Part shown: positions 24,459 through 30,817 of the stretch, piece by piece
Layout: the number at the start of each line of letters is the position of its first letter
Position numbering within the stretch: the stretch's first letter is position 1
Virus record (IMG/VR): IMGVR_UViG_3300008267_000022
Coordinates: 1-64,000 of that record
DNA from: a virus
Length of the DNA: 64,000 nt
Direction: 5' to 3' (one strand)
The notes under the pieces: generated by a model
The model's database searches: none
Seen by the model: only the letters and a program-made list of their open reading frames with translations
What the model was told of the DNA's origin: nothing
Translations under genes and position numbers: made by a program

Positions 24459-24866
24459 TTATACTGTATGTTCAATTTGTACTCTAATACAATTTTGTGG
24501 TAATCTATTTAAATGTCTGTAATTGTTAATGTAACCCATCATATTTGCACTACCAACGGCATTTGCAGAGTGTACTACAACATCAACAACAGGTTTACCA
24601 TCTAACCATTTATTAACTAACCATTTAGTACAATCCATTCCTGTTTTTTCAGTAATATTATCGTAATTAATAGTATAATTCTTAACAACACCATAATGCC
24701 ATTCAGCCATTGCTGAGTCACCTAAATCATGGTCTAATGAGATAAGTTCAATATTCTCTAAGCCAATTGAATTTATCTTCTGCACAAATTCATCATAATT
24801 TCTTACTATGACCCAATCTTTATCAATTGGTGTTCGGACATCGTCTAAGTATATTTTATGTTTCAT
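24459..24866 (-). CDS. cyclic-phosphate-processing receiver (REC)-like protein
   Basis: IYLDDVRTP, ISLDHDLG, TGMDC, VHSAN. Confidence 0.8.
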   Translation of the reverse strand: MKHKIYLDDVRTPIDKDWVIVRNYDEFVQKINSIGLENIELISLDHDLGDSAMAEWHYGVVKNYTINYDNITEKTGMDCTKWLVNKWLDGKPVVDVVVHSANAVGSANMMGYINNYRHLNRLPQNCIRVQIEHTV

Positions 24867-26892: not shown

Positions 26893-27087
26893 TCACTCAT
26901 TCTCTTCATTTACTTTTAAATCTAATTCGGACTCGTAAAAATAAGGACAACACCATTTAGGGTTGTCACACTTGAGTTTTACCATTTTTCCACCATAACA
27001 TCCTACTTGAAGTACTGTTGCCATACCTGAAAATTTGGTTTTAATTCTTTCCCCTATTTTTAATTTATTAAATCTTTTCATAACCAT
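26893..27087 (-). CDS. small SH3-like hypothetical protein
   Basis: LKIGERIK...YESEL. Confidence 0.5.
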   Translation of the reverse strand: MVMKRFNKLKIGERIKTKFSGMATVLQVGCYGGKMVKLKCDNPKWCCPYFYESELDLKVNEENE

Positions 27088-27788
27088 TTTATTTCATTTG
27101 TATGTTTATCCCATTCAATATTTAGTGGTAAATTAGTATACACATATTGTTCATTTAAAACAGATGCGTTTATAAAATGAGTATGCCCATTAAAATAATA
27201 ACCAGCACTACCATGAATGTGTCCAAATACATGTATTTTGGGCTTAGATTGATCTACTCGAGCACGTAACATTTCACATCCAACTCGTATATTCTGTCCT
27301 CCGGGTATATCTAAATAACCATAAGGTGGCCCATGCGTAATTAATACATCTGTGTTATCAGGTATAGCATCCCATTTTGCTTTCATTTCCTCTCCATTTC
27401 GAGGTAAATTGAATGCCCAATTATAAAATTCAGGTTGCCAAGGGGAGCCATAAATGCGAATATTATCTTCAGGAAAATCTCCGTTATGTCCATCATAATA
27501 ATCAACCCAAGATTCATCTTGTAGATAATCTATTGTAGGGTAATTGGGTAATATATTTTCAACCCAATGTGGGATATTTTCAAATACACGGTCGTGGTTT
27601 CCAGCAATGAATATTTTGTCTGTGTAGTTGTCTATTTTATCAAACCATTCTAAAAAATCTATTGCTTCTTGAAAATCGTACCCTCCATTCATAAAGTCAC
27701 CAGCATGAATTAATATATCTCCGCCTGGTAAGTCTTTATTTAGTAGGTTATGTTTGCTATGGGTATCTGATATGAGTGTAATTTTCAT
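27078..27788 (-). CDS. metallophosphoesterase (MPPED/239FB-like)
   Basis: SDTH, HAGD, AGNHD, THGPP, FGHIH. Confidence 0.9.
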   Translation of the reverse strand: MKITLISDTHSKHNLLNKDLPGGDILIHAGDFMNGGYDFQEAIDFLEWFDKIDNYTDKIFIAGNHDRVFENIPHWVENILPNYPTIDYLQDESWVDYYDGHNGDFPEDNIRIYGSPWQPEFYNWAFNLPRNGEEMKAKWDAIPDNTDVLITHGPPYGYLDIPGGQNIRVGCEMLRARVDQSKPKIHVFGHIHGSAGYYFNGHTHFINASVLNEQYVYTNLPLNIEWDKHTNEIKWL

Positions 27789-27927
27789 TTTAAGCAAATA
27801 TTATGGCTATTGTTATTACGGTAACAAACCAAAGTGTTACAATAATAAAAGGAATATTTTTTTTAATCATGACCTTAATTTTCTTTAAATATAAAAAAGA
27901 AATTTCAACAGACCAAGTTTTTTTAAA

Positions 27928-28412
27928 AACGTAAGAGTTTTTGACGAGTTATTTAATATTATCCTTTTAAAATTTCCTTTTTCTCATTAACTTTCTTCAT
28001 ATCGAAGTAAGTGTCTATAAGTTTATCAATTCGAGAGTCTGTGTATCGTCTCCCTTCGCTTGATTCATGTCCAACTGCGCGGTGTAACTCATCAACAGCT
28101 TGATCAGTCTCCCTTCGTGTTGCGTCAATTTGATTCATTAAGGTTTTTTCAACCATTGTTGTGTCGCGACTTGTATTGTCAAATTGTTGCCAAATTTCGC
28201 GATTTGTATTCTCGAGTTCTCGTCTTAAATCACTTTCAATAGCAGCACAAAGCTGTTGAAGTAATTCTATTTTTCTTGTTAAAAAATTAATCTTAACTAA
28301 ACCTACAACAATAACAGTTAATATAATTACTGCTACAATCGTAAGCATACCTAAAATAAATGATGTTATTTCCATAATTTCTAATTTTTATATGTCAAAG
28401 AACTCTTACGTT
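27928..28412. repeat. ~19-bp inverted repeat pair (27928-27945 and 28394-28412) flanking one CDS
   Basis: aacgtaagagtttttgac vs gtcaaagaactcttacgtt. Confidence 0.75.
27959..28375 (-). CDS. N-terminally membrane-anchored coiled-coil protein
   Basis: TM helix then helical domain. Confidence 0.7.
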   Translation of the reverse strand: MEITSFILGMLTIVAVIILTVIVVGLVKINFLTRKIELLQQLCAAIESDLRRELENTNREIWQQFDNTSRDTTMVEKTLMNQIDATRRETDQAVDELHRAVGHESSEGRRYTDSRIDKLIDTYFDMKKVNEKKEILKG

Positions 28413-28423
28413 GTCCCCAAAAT

Positions 28424-28742
28424 AAAAAACCCCTAGTAGTTTTCCAAGCGTCCTTGGCACTTGCTAGGGGGTGATAATGGTTATATGGTTGAGTAAGTAT
28501 GTCTGGCCGGACAGGTATTACAGCAATCCAATTTCCCAATATCGAAAAGACCATCCAAGTGAGCAGATCTAACGGGATGCCCGATGGTACTGGGCCTATG
28601 GTTATCTCACCACAGGGGGGTATTCTTGAGCAACAGTATCACTCAAGGGTTCCAACATTCACATGTTGGTGGGGTAAAAGACCTACCCTGGTACGCTCGA
28701 TCGTGGTCACCACAGTCCAGAAGCGTGGTAGGTACTGTTTGC
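28424..28742 (-). ncRNA. candidate large multi-hairpin ncRNA (~310 nt) with terminator
   Basis: At least 7 stems, e.g. CCAACAT-GTGA-ATGTTGG, CTTGAG/CTCAAG, CCTGTGGT/ACCATAGG; ATATTTATA upstream; CCCCTAG/CTAGGGG-TTTTTT end. Confidence 0.65.
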
Positions 28743-28755
28743 TTTTATAAATATG

Positions 28756-28829
28756 TGGTCCCTCCTGGGTTCGAACCAGAGACCTACTGATTATGAGTCA
28801 GTTGCTCTAACCTGCTGAGCTAAGGGACC
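28756..28829 (-). tRNA. tRNA with CAT anticodon, Ile2(lysidine)-like
   Basis: GGTCCCT/AGGGACC-A; ACTGA-CTCATAA-TCAGT; TTCGAAC loop. Confidence 0.9.
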
Positions 28830-28833
28830 ATTA

Positions 28834-28931
28834 TAGGTGGCGAATAATTTGCGGTTATTCATTTCTACTTTTGAATATGCTGATTAAGTCAACTTCACAG
28901 CAGGAATTTCATTTTCGTCTAACTACCACCC
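28834..28931 (-). ncRNA. tRNA-like closed-stem RNA
   Basis: GGGTGGT/GCCACCT-A; GAATAA-CCGCAAA-TTATTC in T-arm position; TGCTG/CAGCA. Confidence 0.45.
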
Positions 28932-28946
28932 TTTGTAGTTTTTGTG

Positions 28947-29009
28947 TGGTCAAGGGGGGACTCGAACCCCCTGCTGAGTATAGTGCATTTACCCTTATGC
29001 AACATGACC
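28947..29009 (-). ncRNA. 63-nt tRNA-like RNA lacking an anticodon arm
   Basis: GGTCATG/CTTGACC-A; D arm GCAT/ATGC; 13-nt linker; GGGGG-TTCGAGT-CCCCC. Confidence 0.7.
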
Positions 29010-29013
29010 ATTG

Positions 29014-29081
29014 TAGTGGAGATTTGTAACCAACGCAGGATCACCCCTGTGCTTCGTTTCATTTGTCTTCGGCACTCCACT
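29014..29081 (-). ncRNA. tRNA-like closed-stem RNA
   Basis: AGTGGAG/CTCCACT-A; internal CAGG/CCTG. Confidence 0.45.
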
Positions 29082-29083
29082 GT

Positions 29084-29175
29084 TGCAAGTACTTCTTTTT
29101 TATCTTGCGCCACCATTCATGCACTATCCTATATGCTAATGGTTGTTACTGTACTATAGGATGTCAAGTAACTGC
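29084..29175 (-). ncRNA. closed-stem structured RNA
   Basis: GCAGTTACTT/AAGTACTTGC closing stem; ATCCTATA/TATAGGAT hairpin. Confidence 0.35.
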
Positions 29176-29177
29176 TG

Positions 29178-29250
29178 TTGCGGGGGCCAGACTCGAACTG
29201 ACGATCTCGGCTTATGAGACCGAGCGGATAACCATCTTCCACACCCCGCA
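29178..29250 (-). tRNA. tRNA-Met (CAT), initiator-like body
   Basis: TGCGGGG/CCCCGCA-A; TCGGT-CTCATAA-GCCGA. Confidence 0.88.
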
Positions 29251-29256
29251 ATATTG

Positions 29257-29407
29257 TAGCTCTAGTAGGAATCGAACCCACCTTGTAAATTACTTGTCAA
29301 ATGCCTCACCATTTTGCTCCGATACTAGTATTAAGGAGTCGTAAGCCAAATAACCATCATTCACCCACTCGCAGCTGCTAGGAGCGACCCACGCTTGCTA
29401 TAGAGCC
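29257..29407 (-). ncRNA. 151-nt tRNA-scaffold RNA with large insert
   Basis: GGCTCTA/TAGAGCT-A; GTGGG-TTCGATT-CCTAC; internal hairpins. Confidence 0.65.
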
Positions 29408-29472
29408 ATATTTAGATTTTTAAAACCCATCCCTCGTTTGGGGTAAGGAAACTCCACCTAATGTTTTTTGCG

Positions 29473-29616
29473 TAGTCAGGACAGGATTCGAACCTGCAAA
29501 CCTACCTGTTGCCTCGGTTTTAATTAGCTTGGGTCTTTAACAACACATACCCATAACTAAGTGTCTAATTCAAAAAATCGAAACATTTTGAATCTTACCA
29601 ATTCCACCACCTGACT
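29473..29616 (-). ncRNA. 144-nt tRNA-scaffold RNA with large insert
   Basis: AGTCAGG/CCTGACT-A; D-loop-like GTGGAATTGGTA; GCAGG-TTCGAAT-CCTGT. Confidence 0.7.
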
Positions 29617-29628
29617 AACCTTTAAAAA

Positions 29629-29826
29629 TTAATACTCAGGCTCTTTAAATAGCTTAACCAATCTAAAACTCCAGCTATCAGGAAAATCTGCTAGTCTAGA
29701 GGTTGTTGGTGCTAATTTAGTAGCCTCTCTCCTTGTTTTAGCCTCTACAAACCTGTAGGGGGCATGGTATCCATTTCGATGGACCCACTCCACTCTCCAA
29801 AGTGGATATTGCGCTTGCGCTTTCAT
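29629..29826 (-). CDS. hypothetical protein within RNA island
   Basis: ORF track. Confidence 0.55.
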   Translation of the reverse strand: MKAQAQYPLWRVEWVHRNGYHAPYRFVEAKTRREATKLAPTTSRLADFPDSWSFRLVKLFKEPEY

Positions 29827-29885
29827 ATTGATAAATCAATATGTCAGCCTGGAGATTTGTTTTTACACATTTGTTTTAATTTTAG

Positions 29886-29969
29886 TACTCGGGGAGGGAC
29901 TCGAACCCTCACAGCCATCTAGCCAACAGATCTTAAGTCTGTCGTGTCTACCAGTTCCACCACCCAAGC
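29886..29969 (-). tRNA. tRNA-Leu (TAA)
   Basis: GCTTGGG/CCCGAGT-A; ACAGA-CTTAAGA-TCTGT; long variable arm. Confidence 0.93.
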
Positions 29970-30166
29970 AACTGCAGGACCCGCTCCCTGCTCTGAGTTT
30001 GTACTTCACTCTATTAAGCGTTTGTAGGTTTAGTATTTTCTTTTTTTAGTAGTGGATTTTAGCCATTGGAACCATTCTTTAAATTGGTCTACTCTTTGTT
30101 TAGCGGTATTTTTACTCATTATTTTTTTTATTTTAATATACAAACTTTATTTTAATATACAAACTT

Positions 30167-30817
30167 TTATTTACCTAAAGCAAATAATTCTTTATAATTT
30201 TCTTCACCTATTGCATTTAATATTTGACGTAAAAATTCACGTTTATCTTTAAATGATCCTTTTCTGTATTGAGTAATTAATTCAACAACTTCTTTTTCTT
30301 TATCTCTATTTAATGAAGTTTTATAATCCATAACGTCCATAAAACTCATATAATAATATCCTCCTACTGGTGTTGCGCTTTGTAGGATTTCATTAGTTGG
30401 TCTAACCTGCACATCAGCATATGCTCCTCCAGCTTTTGATGGGTCCCATACAGTAAATGCTTCTATTGAACCATCTGATGTTGGTCTATAGATTCCGCCT
30501 GCTTTTAATTCTTTATCAAGGCCAGCATCAGCCCAAAGAATTTCATTAGGGATTACTATATCTAAATCCCCAATACCTCCAGATAGTCCAAAAGCATCTC
30601 TTAACTCAGGGTAAAGGTATAAACGAGCAGATCCTGCTATGAAATATTTTTTTTCAGAAGGTTTAATATTGAACTTATCAAAAATTAAAGTATTAGCTTC
30701 TTGTAATAAACTAGCCAAATCAGAGCTTACAGCTTCATCTAATTGGAAGTCTTTTTCAAATTCATTCCAGAATTCCTTTAAAAATACTTCTTTTAAATAT
30801 ATTTCAGTTAACCTCAT
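30167..30817 (-). CDS. putative nucleotidyltransferase (Pol-beta superfamily)
   Basis: FIAGSA...GDLDIV. Confidence 0.6.
   Translation of the reverse strand: MRLTEIYLKEVFLKEFWNEFEKDFQLDEAVSSDLASLLQEANTLIFDKFNIKPSEKKYFIAGSARLYLYPELRDAFGLSGGIGDLDIVIPNEILWADAGLDKELKAGGIYRPTSDGSIEAFTVWDPSKAGGAYADVQVRPTNEILQSATPVGGYYYMSFMDVMDYKTSLNRDKEKEVVELITQYRKGSFKDKREFLRQILNAIGEENYKELFALGK

What the first reader, a model, noticed from the sequence alone, without database searches (positions are those of the whole stretch)
28424..28742. ~310-nt GC-rich multi-hairpin ncRNA downstream of the tRNA array
Seen: a run of stems (ACCAC/GTGGT, GGGTA/TACCC, CCAACAT-GUGA-ATGTTGG, CTTGAG/CTCAAG, CCTGTGGT/ACCATAGG, GCCC/GGGC, CATCC/GGATG), CAGTACC twice, its own ATATTTATA motif upstream and a terminator. 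I see no RNase P, tmRNA or SRP signature. Known: large phage ncRNAs such as GOLLD and ROOL often sit beside tRNAs but are longer. Inference: an uncharacterised structured RNA class.
Basis: partly seen in the sequence, partly recalled or inferred. Interest (0 to 1): 0.75.

Follow-up and report, generated by a model that had tools for sequence, protein, structure and literature searches.

The report
Phage decoy of AbiF antitoxin RNA
This 315-base phage gene makes a folded non-coding RNA carrying two copies of the small hairpin RNA that sits in front of the AbiF 'suicide nuclease' gene of Bacteroidota bacteria, where relatives of that RNA are known to keep the nuclease off, so the phage most likely uses it to disarm this defence.

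Summary
On the minus strand, 28739->28424, just after tRNA-Met, lies a ~315-nt GC-rich RNA gene ending in a hairpin plus U6. No Rfam family matches, even at E<=10. I found 49 distinct relatives in uncultured viral contigs. On 16 full-length relatives, 76 pairs in 12 helices are 98.6% paired and 33 pairs show compensatory changes. Contigs identical to it occur in three freshwater metatranscriptomes from two studies.

It is not a wholly unknown class. Its only universal core is a ~50-nt hairpin that also stands alone in Bacteroidota chromosomes, directly behind a promoter and directly upstream of Abi_2/AbiF genes (23 of 30 sampled Abi_2 loci). A covariance model built only from those bacterial hairpins hits the 64-kb window twice: 28676-28739 (E=3e-12) and 28545-28594 (E=2e-5). 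No Abi_2 gene was found in the phage record or in 253 viral loci.

Published work (Saunier 2025; Zilberzwige-Tal 2025, PDB 8VZ6) shows that AbiF is a HEPN RNase toxin neutralised by its upstream hairpin RNA, also in trans. Best reading (~0.6): a phage pseudo-antitoxin decoy, like pseudo-ToxI of phage PhiTE. Binding is inferred, not shown.

This scan reached the same reading earlier on a related RNA in another genome (e1-5825784).

The parts
28747..28754 (-). AUAUUUAU motif 8 nt upstream of the RNA; a possible own promoter element (function inferred)
   Evidence: Present in most relatives. Missing where the RNA directly follows a tRNA 3' end (L091, L086, L131), so the RNA may be made from its own promoter or co-transcribed with the tRNAs. 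No 5' end was mapped.
28676..28739 (-). Module A: AbiF-leader-type hairpin, AACAGUACCUACC-ACGC-[inserted helix GACUGUGGUGACCACGAUC]-GCGU-ACCAGG-GUAGGUC-UUUU
   Evidence: R2, a model built only from hairpins upstream of bacterial Abi_2 genes, scores 52.7 bits, E=3.4e-12, over the whole window with filters off. R1 gives E=5e-3. A helix in place of the loop is also seen upstream of bacterial Abi_2 and hsdR genes (L343, L323, L312). Helices 1-3 are 99-100% paired across 16 relatives.
28652..28669 (-). Hairpin H1: CCAACAU-GUGA-AUGUUGG
   Evidence: Three of five counted pairs show changes on both sides and 100% of cells are paired. Variants are CCGUUAU/AUAACGG, CCAAUG/CAUUGG and CCGUUAG/CUAACGG. Absent in the shorter relatives L080, L084 and L085.
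28625..28647 (-). Hairpin H2: CUUGAG...CUCAAG. In some relatives a ~60-80-nt insertion follows it.
   Evidence: Five of six pairs show compensatory changes. The insertion is seen in L082, L099, L128, L083, L081, L187 and L221.
28595..28616 (-). Hairpin H3: CCUGUGGU-GAGAUA-ACCAUAGG
   Evidence: Four of eight pairs show compensatory changes and 99.2% of cells are paired.
28545..28594 (-). Module B: canonical AbiF-leader-type hairpin, AGU-ACCAUC-GGGCA-[UCCCGUUAGAUC]-UGCUC-ACUUG-GAUGGU-CUUUU. It is the only module present in every relative.
   Evidence: R1 gives 34.9 bits, E=5e-6; R2 gives 29 bits, E=1.7e-5. Covariation on 37 long-type copies: 91% paired, 42 cells changed on both sides, 0/500 shuffles reach this. 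On 52 short-type copies: 98.5% paired, 62 such cells, 0/500. The same motif was found in 95 viral and 49 bacterial contigs.
28471..28544 (-). Domain C: closing stem GAUAUUGG/CCAUUAUC, conserved GGGAA and UAUAACC strands, and a variable-length inner hairpin. Role unknown.
   Evidence: Helices 9-11 are 94-98% paired and 8 of 14 pairs show compensatory changes. The inner hairpin is shortened or replaced in the minimal ~135-nt relatives.
28424..28470 (-). 3' hairpin (7-bp outer stem, internal loop, inner stem-loop) plus U6: an intrinsic-terminator-like end of the RNA
   Evidence: Helix 12: 5 of 9 pairs show compensatory changes. It is conserved in all 49 relatives selected for it. In many relatives a tRNA gene begins right after the U-run, so it may also serve as a structural 3' end. 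Termination was not tested.
28755..28829 (-). tRNA-Met (CAU) immediately upstream; the last canonical tRNA of the array
   Evidence: ARAGORN; Rfam tRNA, 69.9 bits.

Best explanation
The region encodes a stable, modular, ~315-nt phage RNA. It is made either from its own promoter-like motif or as the tail of the tRNA-array transcript, and it ends at a hairpin plus U-tract.

The RNA displays two hairpins (module A 28739-28676, module B 28594-28545) that copy the small leader RNA encoded directly upstream of Abi_2/AbiF genes in Bacteroidota.

In AbiF systems the upstream hairpin RNA is a type III-like antitoxin. It binds the HEPN RNase toxin, one RNA per monomer of a dimer, blocks its active site, and also works when supplied in trans (published; see evidence).

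The phage has the RNA but no toxin gene. Inferred mechanism: during infection the phage floods the cell with this pseudo-antitoxin. AbiF then stays inhibited even if host transcription stops and the host's own labile antitoxin decays, so abortive infection is prevented.

The remaining helices (H1-H3, domain C, 3' hairpin) are inferred to give stability, spacing and a defined 3' end.

Shown here: the RNA family, its fold, its presence in RNA libraries, its match to the bacterial Abi_2 leader hairpin, and that no Abi_2 gene was found in the viral DNA held. Inferred: binding to AbiF, neutralisation, and the host.
For: 1. Real RNA.
- 49 distinct relatives in viral contigs.
- 76 pairs in 12 helices, 98.6% paired, 33 pairs changed on both sides, 0/500 shuffles reach any of the five measures; slid controls are 33-47% paired.
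- Contigs with no differences from the window over 28479-28715, 28515-28695 and 28469-28692 in three metatranscriptome runs from two studies.

2. Shared core.
- The module-B motif occurs in 49 bacterial contigs, nearly all Bacteroidota. It stands alone about 4 nt behind a TAnnTTTG promoter box and is followed by a U-run.
- 33 of 52 copies precede Abi_2-like genes. Pfam PF07751 was confirmed on four of them, E 1e-53 to 1e-59.

3. Reciprocal test.
- Abi_2 homologues were found in 35 of 401 evenly sampled genomes of the class.
- 23 of the 30 loci fetched have the hairpin on the same strand just upstream of the gene.

4. Independent model.
- R2 was built only from 13 such bacterial hairpins.
- With filters off it finds exactly two significant matches in the 64-kb window: module A (52.7 bits, E=3.4e-12) and module B (29 bits, E=1.7e-5).
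- It finds the hairpin in 40 of 49 related phage RNAs; L086 scores 75.7 bits.

5. Orphan status.
- No PF07751 match in the 83.7-kb record.
- No tblastn hit of four Abi_2 proteins in the window or in 253 viral loci.

6. Known biology.
- C. difficile AbiF is neutralised in cis and in trans by the upstream RNA RCd22, which has two hairpin motifs plus a terminator and binds the protein directly (PMC12373285).
- AbiF of Prevotellaceae is blocked by its ncRNA AbiFr (Zilberzwige-Tal 2025, as reported in PMC12737573 and PMC13064643).
- The solved protein 8VZ6_A matches a hairpin-associated Abi_2 at E=1.6e-43.
- Phage PhiTE escapes ToxIN through an RNA antitoxin mimic (PMC3475682).

7. Other, unrelated phages carry the same hairpin 7-8 nt behind their major head protein gene, a position where it would be transcribed abundantly.
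Against: - No binding or neutralisation data exist, and these tools cannot model protein-RNA complexes.
- I could not read the RNA chain of 8VZ6. That my Bacteroidota hairpin is the published AbiFr therefore rests on position and on protein homology.
- The Rfam abiF motif RF03085 does not match the phage RNA or the Bacteroidota hairpins.
- The host is unknown, so it is not shown that it carries AbiF.
- The virus record is only ~52% complete, so a phage-borne abiF elsewhere cannot be excluded.
- In bacteria the hairpin also precedes hsdR, DUF3800, SLFN_AlbA_2 and AAA_14/DUF4143 genes. In other phages it fills intergenic gaps. It could therefore be a more general terminator or regulatory element.
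- Two thirds of the RNA (H1-H3, domain C, 3' hairpin) are conserved, yet the decoy idea does not explain them.
- R1 was built from sequences fished with a pattern derived from the phage family. R2's training hairpins were located with R1, although they are anchored by the Abi_2 gene.
Confidence: 0.6

Rival explanations
1. The shared hairpin is a general cis-element of Bacteroidota and their phages: a factor-dependent terminator or attenuator, an mRNA stabiliser, or a processing or antitermination site. The phage RNA then has some other, unknown job, and the hairpins only punctuate the tRNA-array transcript.
For: The hairpin is always followed by a U-run. It also precedes hsdR, DUF3800, SLFN_AlbA_2 and AAA_14 genes. 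It fills the gap after major head protein genes in other phages. In many relatives tRNA genes start right after the RNA's terminal U-run.
Against: It is rare (1-2 copies per 3-6 Mb genome). It is strongly tied to one gene family (33/52 and 23/30). Its 12-nt loop and stem base are sequence-conserved across orders, which a plain terminator does not need. The two hsdR copies seen in full (L282, L273) lie in loci that also hold Abi_2.
Confidence: 0.17
2. It is the cis antitoxin of a phage-borne AbiF toxin-antitoxin system, as in the C. difficile prophage. The toxin gene would lie in the unsequenced half of the genome, where it could serve superinfection exclusion.
For: AbiF systems do occur on prophages (PMC12373285). 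The record is only ~52% complete.
Against: Wherever found in the bacterial Abi_2 loci, the RNA lies within ~170 nt upstream of the gene. Here the next gene is a 138-aa membrane/coiled-coil protein. No Abi_2 was found in the record or in the flanks of 49 related RNAs among 253 viral loci.
Confidence: 0.06
3. The hairpins are binding sites for a phage protein, such as a translational or antitermination regulator. Host AbiF leaders copy the phage site to sense infection, as lactococcal AbiD1 mRNA is activated by phage Orf1. The phage RNA would then be the natural operator or buffer of that protein.
For: AbiD1 (Abi_2 family) translation is activated by a phage protein that binds its mRNA (PMC2661086; PMC13064643). 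The hairpin recurs in very different phages.
Against: I found no conserved candidate protein next to the RNA. The neighbours differ between loci. The published AbiF-ncRNA structure and genetics already explain the host hairpin as an antitoxin.
Confidence: 0.08
4. It is a captured host leader plus decaying tRNA-array debris, with no function of its own.
For: The array around it contains several aberrant tRNA-like elements.
Against: 49 relatives carry compensatory changes in every helix. Module composition is conserved. Identical contigs occur in RNA libraries.
Confidence: 0.03

Closest known systems
AbiFr, the cis-encoded ncRNA antitoxin of AbiF (Abi_2/HEPN RNase); PbAbiF-ncRNA complex PDB 8VZ6 (Zilberzwige-Tal et al., Cell 2025, read through PMC12737573 and PMC13064643)
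   Same: The hairpin sits behind a promoter and directly upstream of Abi_2 genes of Bacteroidota. The solved protein is homologous to the hairpin-associated Abi_2 (E=1.6e-43). The phage modules A and B match the model of these leaders. One RNA per monomer of a dimer fits two hairpins per phage RNA.
   Different: The phage RNA has no toxin gene beside it. It joins two different hairpin variants into a 315-nt multi-helix RNA and lies in a tRNA array. Sequence identity with the published AbiFr could not be checked, because the RNA chain is not held.
RCd22 / abiF motif (Rfam RF03085) of Clostridioides difficile (Saunier et al. 2025, PMC12373285)
   Same: Both have two hairpin motifs in one RNA, ending in a Rho-independent terminator. 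RCd22 neutralises an Abi_2-family toxin by direct binding, in cis and in trans.
   Different: RF03085 does not match here. The motifs differ in sequence and size (33-35 nt against 46-64 nt). RCd22 is followed by its toxin gene.
Pseudo-ToxI of phage PhiTE, an RNA antitoxin mimic that defeats ToxIN (Blower et al. 2012, PMC3475682)
   Same: The proposed logic is the same: a phage-encoded copy of a type III antitoxin RNA neutralises an abortive-infection RNase.
   Different: PhiTE escape mutants arose in the laboratory by expanding or capturing repeats. Here the mimic is a conserved natural gene family with extra structured domains, and it targets a different toxin family (HEPN AbiF, not ToxN). 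Its activity is untested.
Phage sk1 cos-region hairpin that inhibits lactococcal AbiF (Rince 2000; Zilberzwige-Tal 2025, as cited in PMC13064643)
   Same: A phage-borne hairpin counteracts AbiF.
   Different: That hairpin is reported not to resemble the AbiF ncRNA. The hairpins here do match the AbiF-leader model.
Phage T4 rnaC/rnaD small stable RNAs, and GOLLD/ROOL large RNAs next to tRNAs
   Same: Genomic niche: structured RNAs of unknown or newly emerging function inside or beside phage tRNA clusters.
   Different: No sequence match to any GenBank phage, T4 included. No Rfam GOLLD or ROOL match. This RNA is much smaller than GOLLD or ROOL.

Membership tests
AbiF-associated leader/antitoxin hairpin RNA of Bacteroidota (AbiFr-like) | Sequence and structure match to the hairpin found upstream of Abi_2 genes | tested here: met
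   R2 (13 bacterial hairpins only) hits 28676-28739 at 52.7 bits, E=3.4e-12, and 28545-28594 at 29 bits, E=1.7e-5. Nothing else in 64 kb is significant. R1 gives the same two places in the 83.7-kb record.
AbiF-associated leader/antitoxin hairpin RNA of Bacteroidota (AbiFr-like) | Encoded on the same strand immediately upstream of an Abi_2/AbiF gene | tested here: not met
   Met for the bacterial copies (33/52; 23/30). Not met for the phage RNA: the next gene is a 138-aa membrane protein, and no Abi_2 was found in the record or in 253 viral loci. The phage RNA is therefore an orphan copy, not a cis antitoxin.
AbiF-associated leader/antitoxin hairpin RNA of Bacteroidota (AbiFr-like) | Binds AbiF and blocks its RNase activity | not testable with these tools
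   No protein-RNA modelling or assay is available. The claim rests on published systems.
AbiF-associated leader/antitoxin hairpin RNA of Bacteroidota (AbiFr-like) | Identity with the RNA chain of the solved PbAbiF complex (8VZ6) | not testable with these tools
   Only protein chains are held. The protein homology is E=1.6e-43.
Rfam abiF motif RF03085 | Covariance-model match | tested here: not met
   No hit at E<=10 on 28300-30300, at E<=1 on six bacterial loci, or in the record and four Bacteroidota genomes. In one search the control genomes did not ring either.
GOLLD (RF01998) / ROOL and other large tRNA-adjacent RNAs | Covariance-model match | tested here: not met
   All 4227 Rfam 15 families were scanned. 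Only tRNA hits appeared in the region.
tmRNA / RNase P RNA / SRP RNA / 6S RNA | ARAGORN tmRNA call or Rfam match | tested here: not met
   ARAGORN finds 4 tRNAs and no tmRNA. No Rfam match.
Phage RNA antitoxin mimics (pseudo-ToxI type) | Phage-encoded RNA resembling the host's type III-like antitoxin, without the toxin | tested here: met
   This is a functional class rather than a sequence family.
Phage RNA antitoxin mimics (pseudo-ToxI type) | Confers escape from the cognate Abi system | not testable with these tools
   This needs a host and an infection or toxicity assay.

The most novel reading that the evidence does not exclude
The RNA is a composite anti-defence RNA. Modules A and B are two different AbiF-antitoxin variants aimed at different AbiF clades. 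The other conserved, swappable modules would each mimic the regulatory or antitoxin RNA of further defence systems. These modules are H1-H3, the optional ~70-nt insert, domain C and the 3' hairpin. The neighbouring anticodon-less and insert-bearing tRNA-like RNAs may do the same. The phage tRNA array would then double as an array of RNA decoys.
Probability: 0.15. Interest if true: 0.92.

Novelty: new variant of a known kind. Interest (0 to 1): 0.78.

Why it matters
RNA antitoxin mimicry by phages is so far known mainly from laboratory escape mutants of PhiTE against ToxIN. AbiF-ncRNA systems were only characterised in 2025 and are regarded as the ancestors of Cas13.

A natural, widespread, modular family of phage RNAs carrying AbiF-antitoxin hairpins would be an RNA-level anti-defence gene. 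I found none like it against AbiF in the papers searched.

It would give a function to one of the many enigmatic structured RNAs in phage tRNA clusters. It would also offer a compact natural inhibitor for AbiF, and a probe for the protein-RNA recognition from which crRNA binding is thought to have evolved.

As a by-product, the work defines the Bacteroidota AbiF leader hairpin, which has no Rfam model. It also shows that hairpin in front of type I restriction and other defence genes, and behind capsid genes of unrelated phages.

Tried and rejected
- Rfam at gathering score and at E<=10, and ARAGORN tmRNA: nothing.
- blastn of the RNA against 50,697 GenBank phage records: no match. The whole array matched only through its tRNAs.
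- Exact 18-mer scan of H1 in viral contigs: no hit.
- Loci fetched with the two flanking genes (138 aa and 216 aa): single-sequence nhmmer found no relative of the RNA there. A profile later found minimal forms in L004, L006 and L070. The metallophosphatase gene, 1 kb away, was the query that brought in close relatives.
- RF03085 (abiF motif): not found. The control genomes did not ring either, so that search is weak.
- Protein-coding reading: the short ORFs over the region (57 aa on the minus strand; 83 and 68 aa on the plus strand) were not pursued. Relatives differ by indels that are not multiples of three and by compensatory stem changes.
- Ideas dropped for lack of support:
  - A loop-loop kissing dimer through the AGAUCU palindrome; about 40% of copies have AGAAC instead.
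  - A pseudoknot between the loop AAGA and the 3' UCUU; I saw no covariation.
  - A resemblance of the module to 16S/23S rRNA segments; this was recalled from memory only and not tested.
- RNA-run contigs: there was no cover of the flanking protein genes, most of the tRNA array or the terminal hairpin in the three metatranscriptomes, whereas a DNA run covers 28 of 30 bins. This is at most a weak hint of selective abundance and says nothing about RNA ends or strand. DNA carry-over in RNA libraries cannot be excluded.
- Literature: the Cell 2025 AbiF paper itself is not held. No held paper describes phage-encoded AbiFr-like RNAs.
- The metagenome-contig scan and complex prediction were not used. 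Patterns for the other modules would give too many chance hits, and RNA cannot be a chain in complex prediction.

Full report
**What is there.**
- The window is part of an 83.7-kb IMG/VR virus record, estimated ~52% complete.
- The genome is ~30% GC, and the genes around the finding lie on the minus strand.
- The phage has a family-B DNA polymerase that is only 31% identical to its best cultured match, Microcystis phage Mel-JY01, and ~25% identical to T4-like cyanophages. It also encodes a GroEL. It is therefore a deep-branching T4-like phage with no close cultured relative.
- Between 28424 and about 30050 lies a gene-free island of 45-50% GC. It holds tRNA-Leu, two tRNA-Met and several aberrant tRNA-like elements, all on the minus strand.
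- The finding is the last ~315 nt of this island. It runs from AACAGUACC at 28739 to a long hairpin plus U6 at 28470-28424.
- The single sequence folds better than all 100 shuffles (z = -3.6).
- No Rfam 15 family matches, even at E<=10, and ARAGORN sees no tmRNA.

**Relatives and fold.**
- GenBank phages hold nothing similar.
- Viral contigs fetched through the nearby metallophosphatase gene (55-83% identical proteins) contain clear relatives of the RNA. A motif scan added more. In all I count 49 distinct copies.
- Copies range from ~130 nt to ~420 nt and are visibly modular:
  - an optional 5' module A;
  - optional hairpins H1-H3, with an optional ~60-80-nt insert;
  - a universal module B;
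  - a domain C whose inner hairpin varies in length;
  - a conserved 3' hairpin with a U-run.
- On 16 full-length copies the RNAalifold consensus has 72 pairs, 30 of them with compensatory changes.
- With H1 added by hand, 76 pairs in 12 helices are 98.6% paired and 33 pairs changed on both sides. No shuffle out of 500 reaches any of the five measures, and sliding the partners drops pairing to 33-47%.
The other three are replaced by better-supported alternatives.
- 30 of the 49 copies have a same-strand tRNA within 1.5 kb, and some start 0-3 nt after a tRNA 3' end or are followed at once by a tRNA. The other 19 show no tRNA in the DNA held.

**Presence in RNA libraries.**
- Three freshwater metatranscriptome runs from two studies contain contigs of 181-240 nt with no differences from 28479-28715, 28515-28695 and 28469-28692.
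- The same libraries also hold variant contigs that skip the H1-H3 part, that is, relatives of other module composition.
- Contigs cannot give strand, ends or level, and DNA can contaminate RNA libraries. This is supportive, not conclusive.

**The key observation.**
- The only part shared by all relatives is module B: AGU-ACC(N3-4)-...-GC(A/U)-U(C/A)CC(G/A)UNAGA(U/A)C-(U/A)GC-...-(N3-4)GGU-C-U-rich.
- A degenerate pattern for it hit 95 viral contigs. It also hit 49 contigs of bacterial genomes, nearly all Bacteroidota, including isolates of Algoriphagus, Cyclobacterium, Ravibacter and Corallibacter.
- In bacteria the hairpin stands alone (~46-52 nt). It starts about 4 nt after a Bacteroidota-type TAnnTTTG promoter box and ends in a long U-run.
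- Covariation is strong in both length variants. In the 52 short copies 98.5% of cells are paired, 62 cells changed on both sides, and the A-U/U-A swap at the loop-closing pair occurs 34:18 with no mismatch. The 37 long copies behave alike.
- The gene that follows is Abi_2-like in 33 of 52 cases. Four of these were confirmed as Pfam PF07751 (E 1e-53 to 1e-59); the rest were recognised by the shared ISYYRLKGYWW N-terminus.
- In the other cases it is a type I restriction hsdR (4), DUF3800, SLFN_AlbA_2 or AAA_14/DUF4143, or the gene is unclear.
- The element is rare: 1-2 copies per isolate genome, and 3 of 150 other sampled genomes of the class. It is not a general terminator.

**Reciprocal and independent tests.**
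- Starting from the protein, Abi_2 homologues occur in 35 of 401 evenly sampled genomes of the class.
- In 23 of the 30 loci fetched, model R1 finds the hairpin on the gene's strand just upstream of its start (17 of them at E below 0.05).
- The commonest bacterial form is AACAGUAC(C/U)CGCC-ACGC-U(A/U)CCC(G/A)UNAGA(A/U)C-AGCG-(U/C)(C/A)CCAGG-GCGAGUC-UUUU. It has the same frame as the phage's module A.
- Bacterial variants in which a helix replaces or splits the loop also exist (L343, L323, L312). Module A is therefore a natural variant, not a decayed copy.
- I built model R2 from 13 of these bacterial hairpins only and scanned the whole window with filters off. Module A scores 52.7 bits (E=3.4e-12) and module B 29 bits (E=1.7e-5). 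The next match has E=0.065.
- R2 also finds the hairpin in 40 of the 49 related phage RNAs. One copy, L086, scores 75.7 bits.
- The phage record has no Abi_2 gene. Neither the window nor any of 253 viral loci gives a tblastn hit with four Abi_2 proteins.

**What is known about such RNAs.**
- In Clostridioides difficile, AbiF (Abi_2 family, HEPN RNase) is toxic. It is neutralised by the upstream RNA RCd22, which has two hairpin 'abiF motifs' followed by a terminator. RCd22 binds the protein tightly and works in cis and in trans (PMC12373285).
- For an AbiF from Prevotellaceae, the cis-encoded ncRNA AbiFr was shown to be the antitoxin. In the cryo-EM structure (8VZ6) each monomer of the dimer holds one RNA, and bulge nucleotides block the active site. 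I take this from PMC12737573 and PMC13064643, because the original Cell 2025 paper is not held.
- The solved protein matches one of my hairpin-associated Abi_2 proteins at E=1.6e-43 over its full length.
- The Rfam abiF motif (RF03085) does not match the Bacteroidota hairpin or the phage RNA. The Bacteroidota leader is a distinct, uncatalogued variant.
- A phage defeating a type III toxin-antitoxin system with an RNA antitoxin mimic is established for PhiTE and ToxIN (PMC3475682). A hairpin in the cos region of phage sk1 is reported to inhibit lactococcal AbiF.

**Interpretation.**
- The most economical reading is that this phage RNA is a pseudo-antitoxin. It is a stable RNA, made with or beside the tRNAs, that presents two AbiF-leader hairpins without the toxin, and so keeps AbiF inhibited during infection.
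- Two hairpins per RNA fit a dimeric toxin. Two different variants could also broaden the range of AbiF clades covered.
- The same hairpin lies 7-8 nt behind the major head protein gene in unrelated phages. This fits a need for abundant expression, although it equally fits a terminator role.
- I put this reading at about 0.6. The steps from 'matches the leader' to 'binds and neutralises AbiF' are inference.
- The main rival is that the hairpin is a more general regulatory or terminator element of defence loci and phage operons. This is kept alive by its presence before hsdR and other genes, and by the unexplained conservation of the rest of the RNA.

**Relation to earlier notes of this scan.**
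- I reached the link to Abi_2 leaders and the decoy idea from the data.
- I then saw that a follow-up on another genome (e1-5825784) had come to the same reading for a ~380-nt relative. That note gave me the name AbiFr and the PDB lead, which I checked myself.
- The agreement is not independent evidence.

**Verdict.**
The interpretation 'uncharacterised structured RNA class' is partly right: no Rfam family exists, but the core matches the AbiF leader/antitoxin hairpin.
- Novelty: a new variant of a known kind (phage RNA antitoxin mimicry), now against AbiF, as a natural modular gene family.

Noticed in passing
window 28830-29885 (minus strand): The rest of the array holds aberrant tRNA-like RNAs: a 63-nt element without an anticodon arm (28947-29009, Rfam tRNA 35.9 bits); a 144-nt tRNA-like element with large inserts (29473-29616, 28.9 bits); and a ~150-nt acceptor/T-arm-closed element (29257-29407). 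The 117-nt spacer 28830-28946 is conserved in other viral contigs (nhmmer E 1e-19 to 1e-25 in L004, L022 and others).
   Followed up: partly
window 28376-28412 and loci L008, L016, L028, L033, L036: A GUUCUUUGACAU(A/U)UAAAA motif directly upstream of the 138-aa membrane/coiled-coil gene is conserved across distant relatives. In many phages that gene sits within ~40 nt of the last tRNA of an array.
   Followed up: partly
L256, L258, L263, L272, L279, L281, L297, L302, L313, L314 (bacteria) and L197 (viral): Many Abi_2 leaders carry a second conserved terminator-like element 20-40 nt after the first hairpin: AAUACACCUCYUAUGCCUCUCNACGAUGCACACUNAGGGGGU plus a U-run. It matched no Rfam family in the loci scanned, and the phage RNA lacks it.
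   Followed up: no
L282, L273, L295, L288, L312 (hsdR); L283 (DUF3800); L264 (SLFN_AlbA_2); L276 (AAA_14/DUF4143): The AbiF-type leader hairpin also sits directly in front of type I restriction hsdR and other defence-type genes, sometimes in the same locus as Abi_2. This suggests a shared RNA-level control of several defence genes.
   Followed up: partly
L243, L240, L214, L193, L226 (after major head protein genes); L222, L219, L245, L215, L253 (before a virion structural protein gene): Unrelated phage contigs carry the short form of the hairpin exactly filling the gap after a highly expressed structural gene. It lies 5-8 nt after the stop codon and 6-33 nt before the next start codon.
   Followed up: partly
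L016:1449-1724 and L033:5724-6000: A different ~200-nt, 40% GC non-coding stretch with its own terminator occupies the same slot (between tRNA-Met and the 138-aa gene homologue) in two other viral contigs. It shows no similarity to the RNA studied here.
   Followed up: no
window 24459-24866 and 27078-27797 (minus strand): A cREC_REC domain protein (PF20274, cyclic-phosphate processing receiver, E=2e-22) and a calcineurin-like metallophosphatase lie 1-4 kb downstream of the RNA. They are candidates for an RNA-end repair module that could counter RNA-cleaving defences.
   Followed up: no
window 29400-29460 and upstream of the RNA in L099, L081, L128, L085, L084, L080, L110: A conserved element, GGAGUUUCCUUACCUCA..GAGAUGGGUUUUA(C/G)AAGU, precedes the AUAUUUAU motif in many relatives. 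In this window it precedes the 150-nt tRNA-like element instead. It may be a terminator-promoter cassette that moves with RNA modules.
   Followed up: no
L282:1750-1815 (Algoriphagus sp.): A DUF3800-VIII RNA motif (RF03075, 46.7 bits) lies on the opposite strand between the hairpin-led Abi_2 gene and the hairpin-led hsdR gene.
   Followed up: no
L291 (Cyanobacteriota MAG), L279 (Pseudanabaena MAG), L255/L264/L276/L294 (Marinimicrobia MAGs): The hairpin-plus-Abi_2 arrangement also appears in contigs binned to non-Bacteroidota genomes. This could reflect wider distribution, horizontal transfer or binning error.
   Followed up: no
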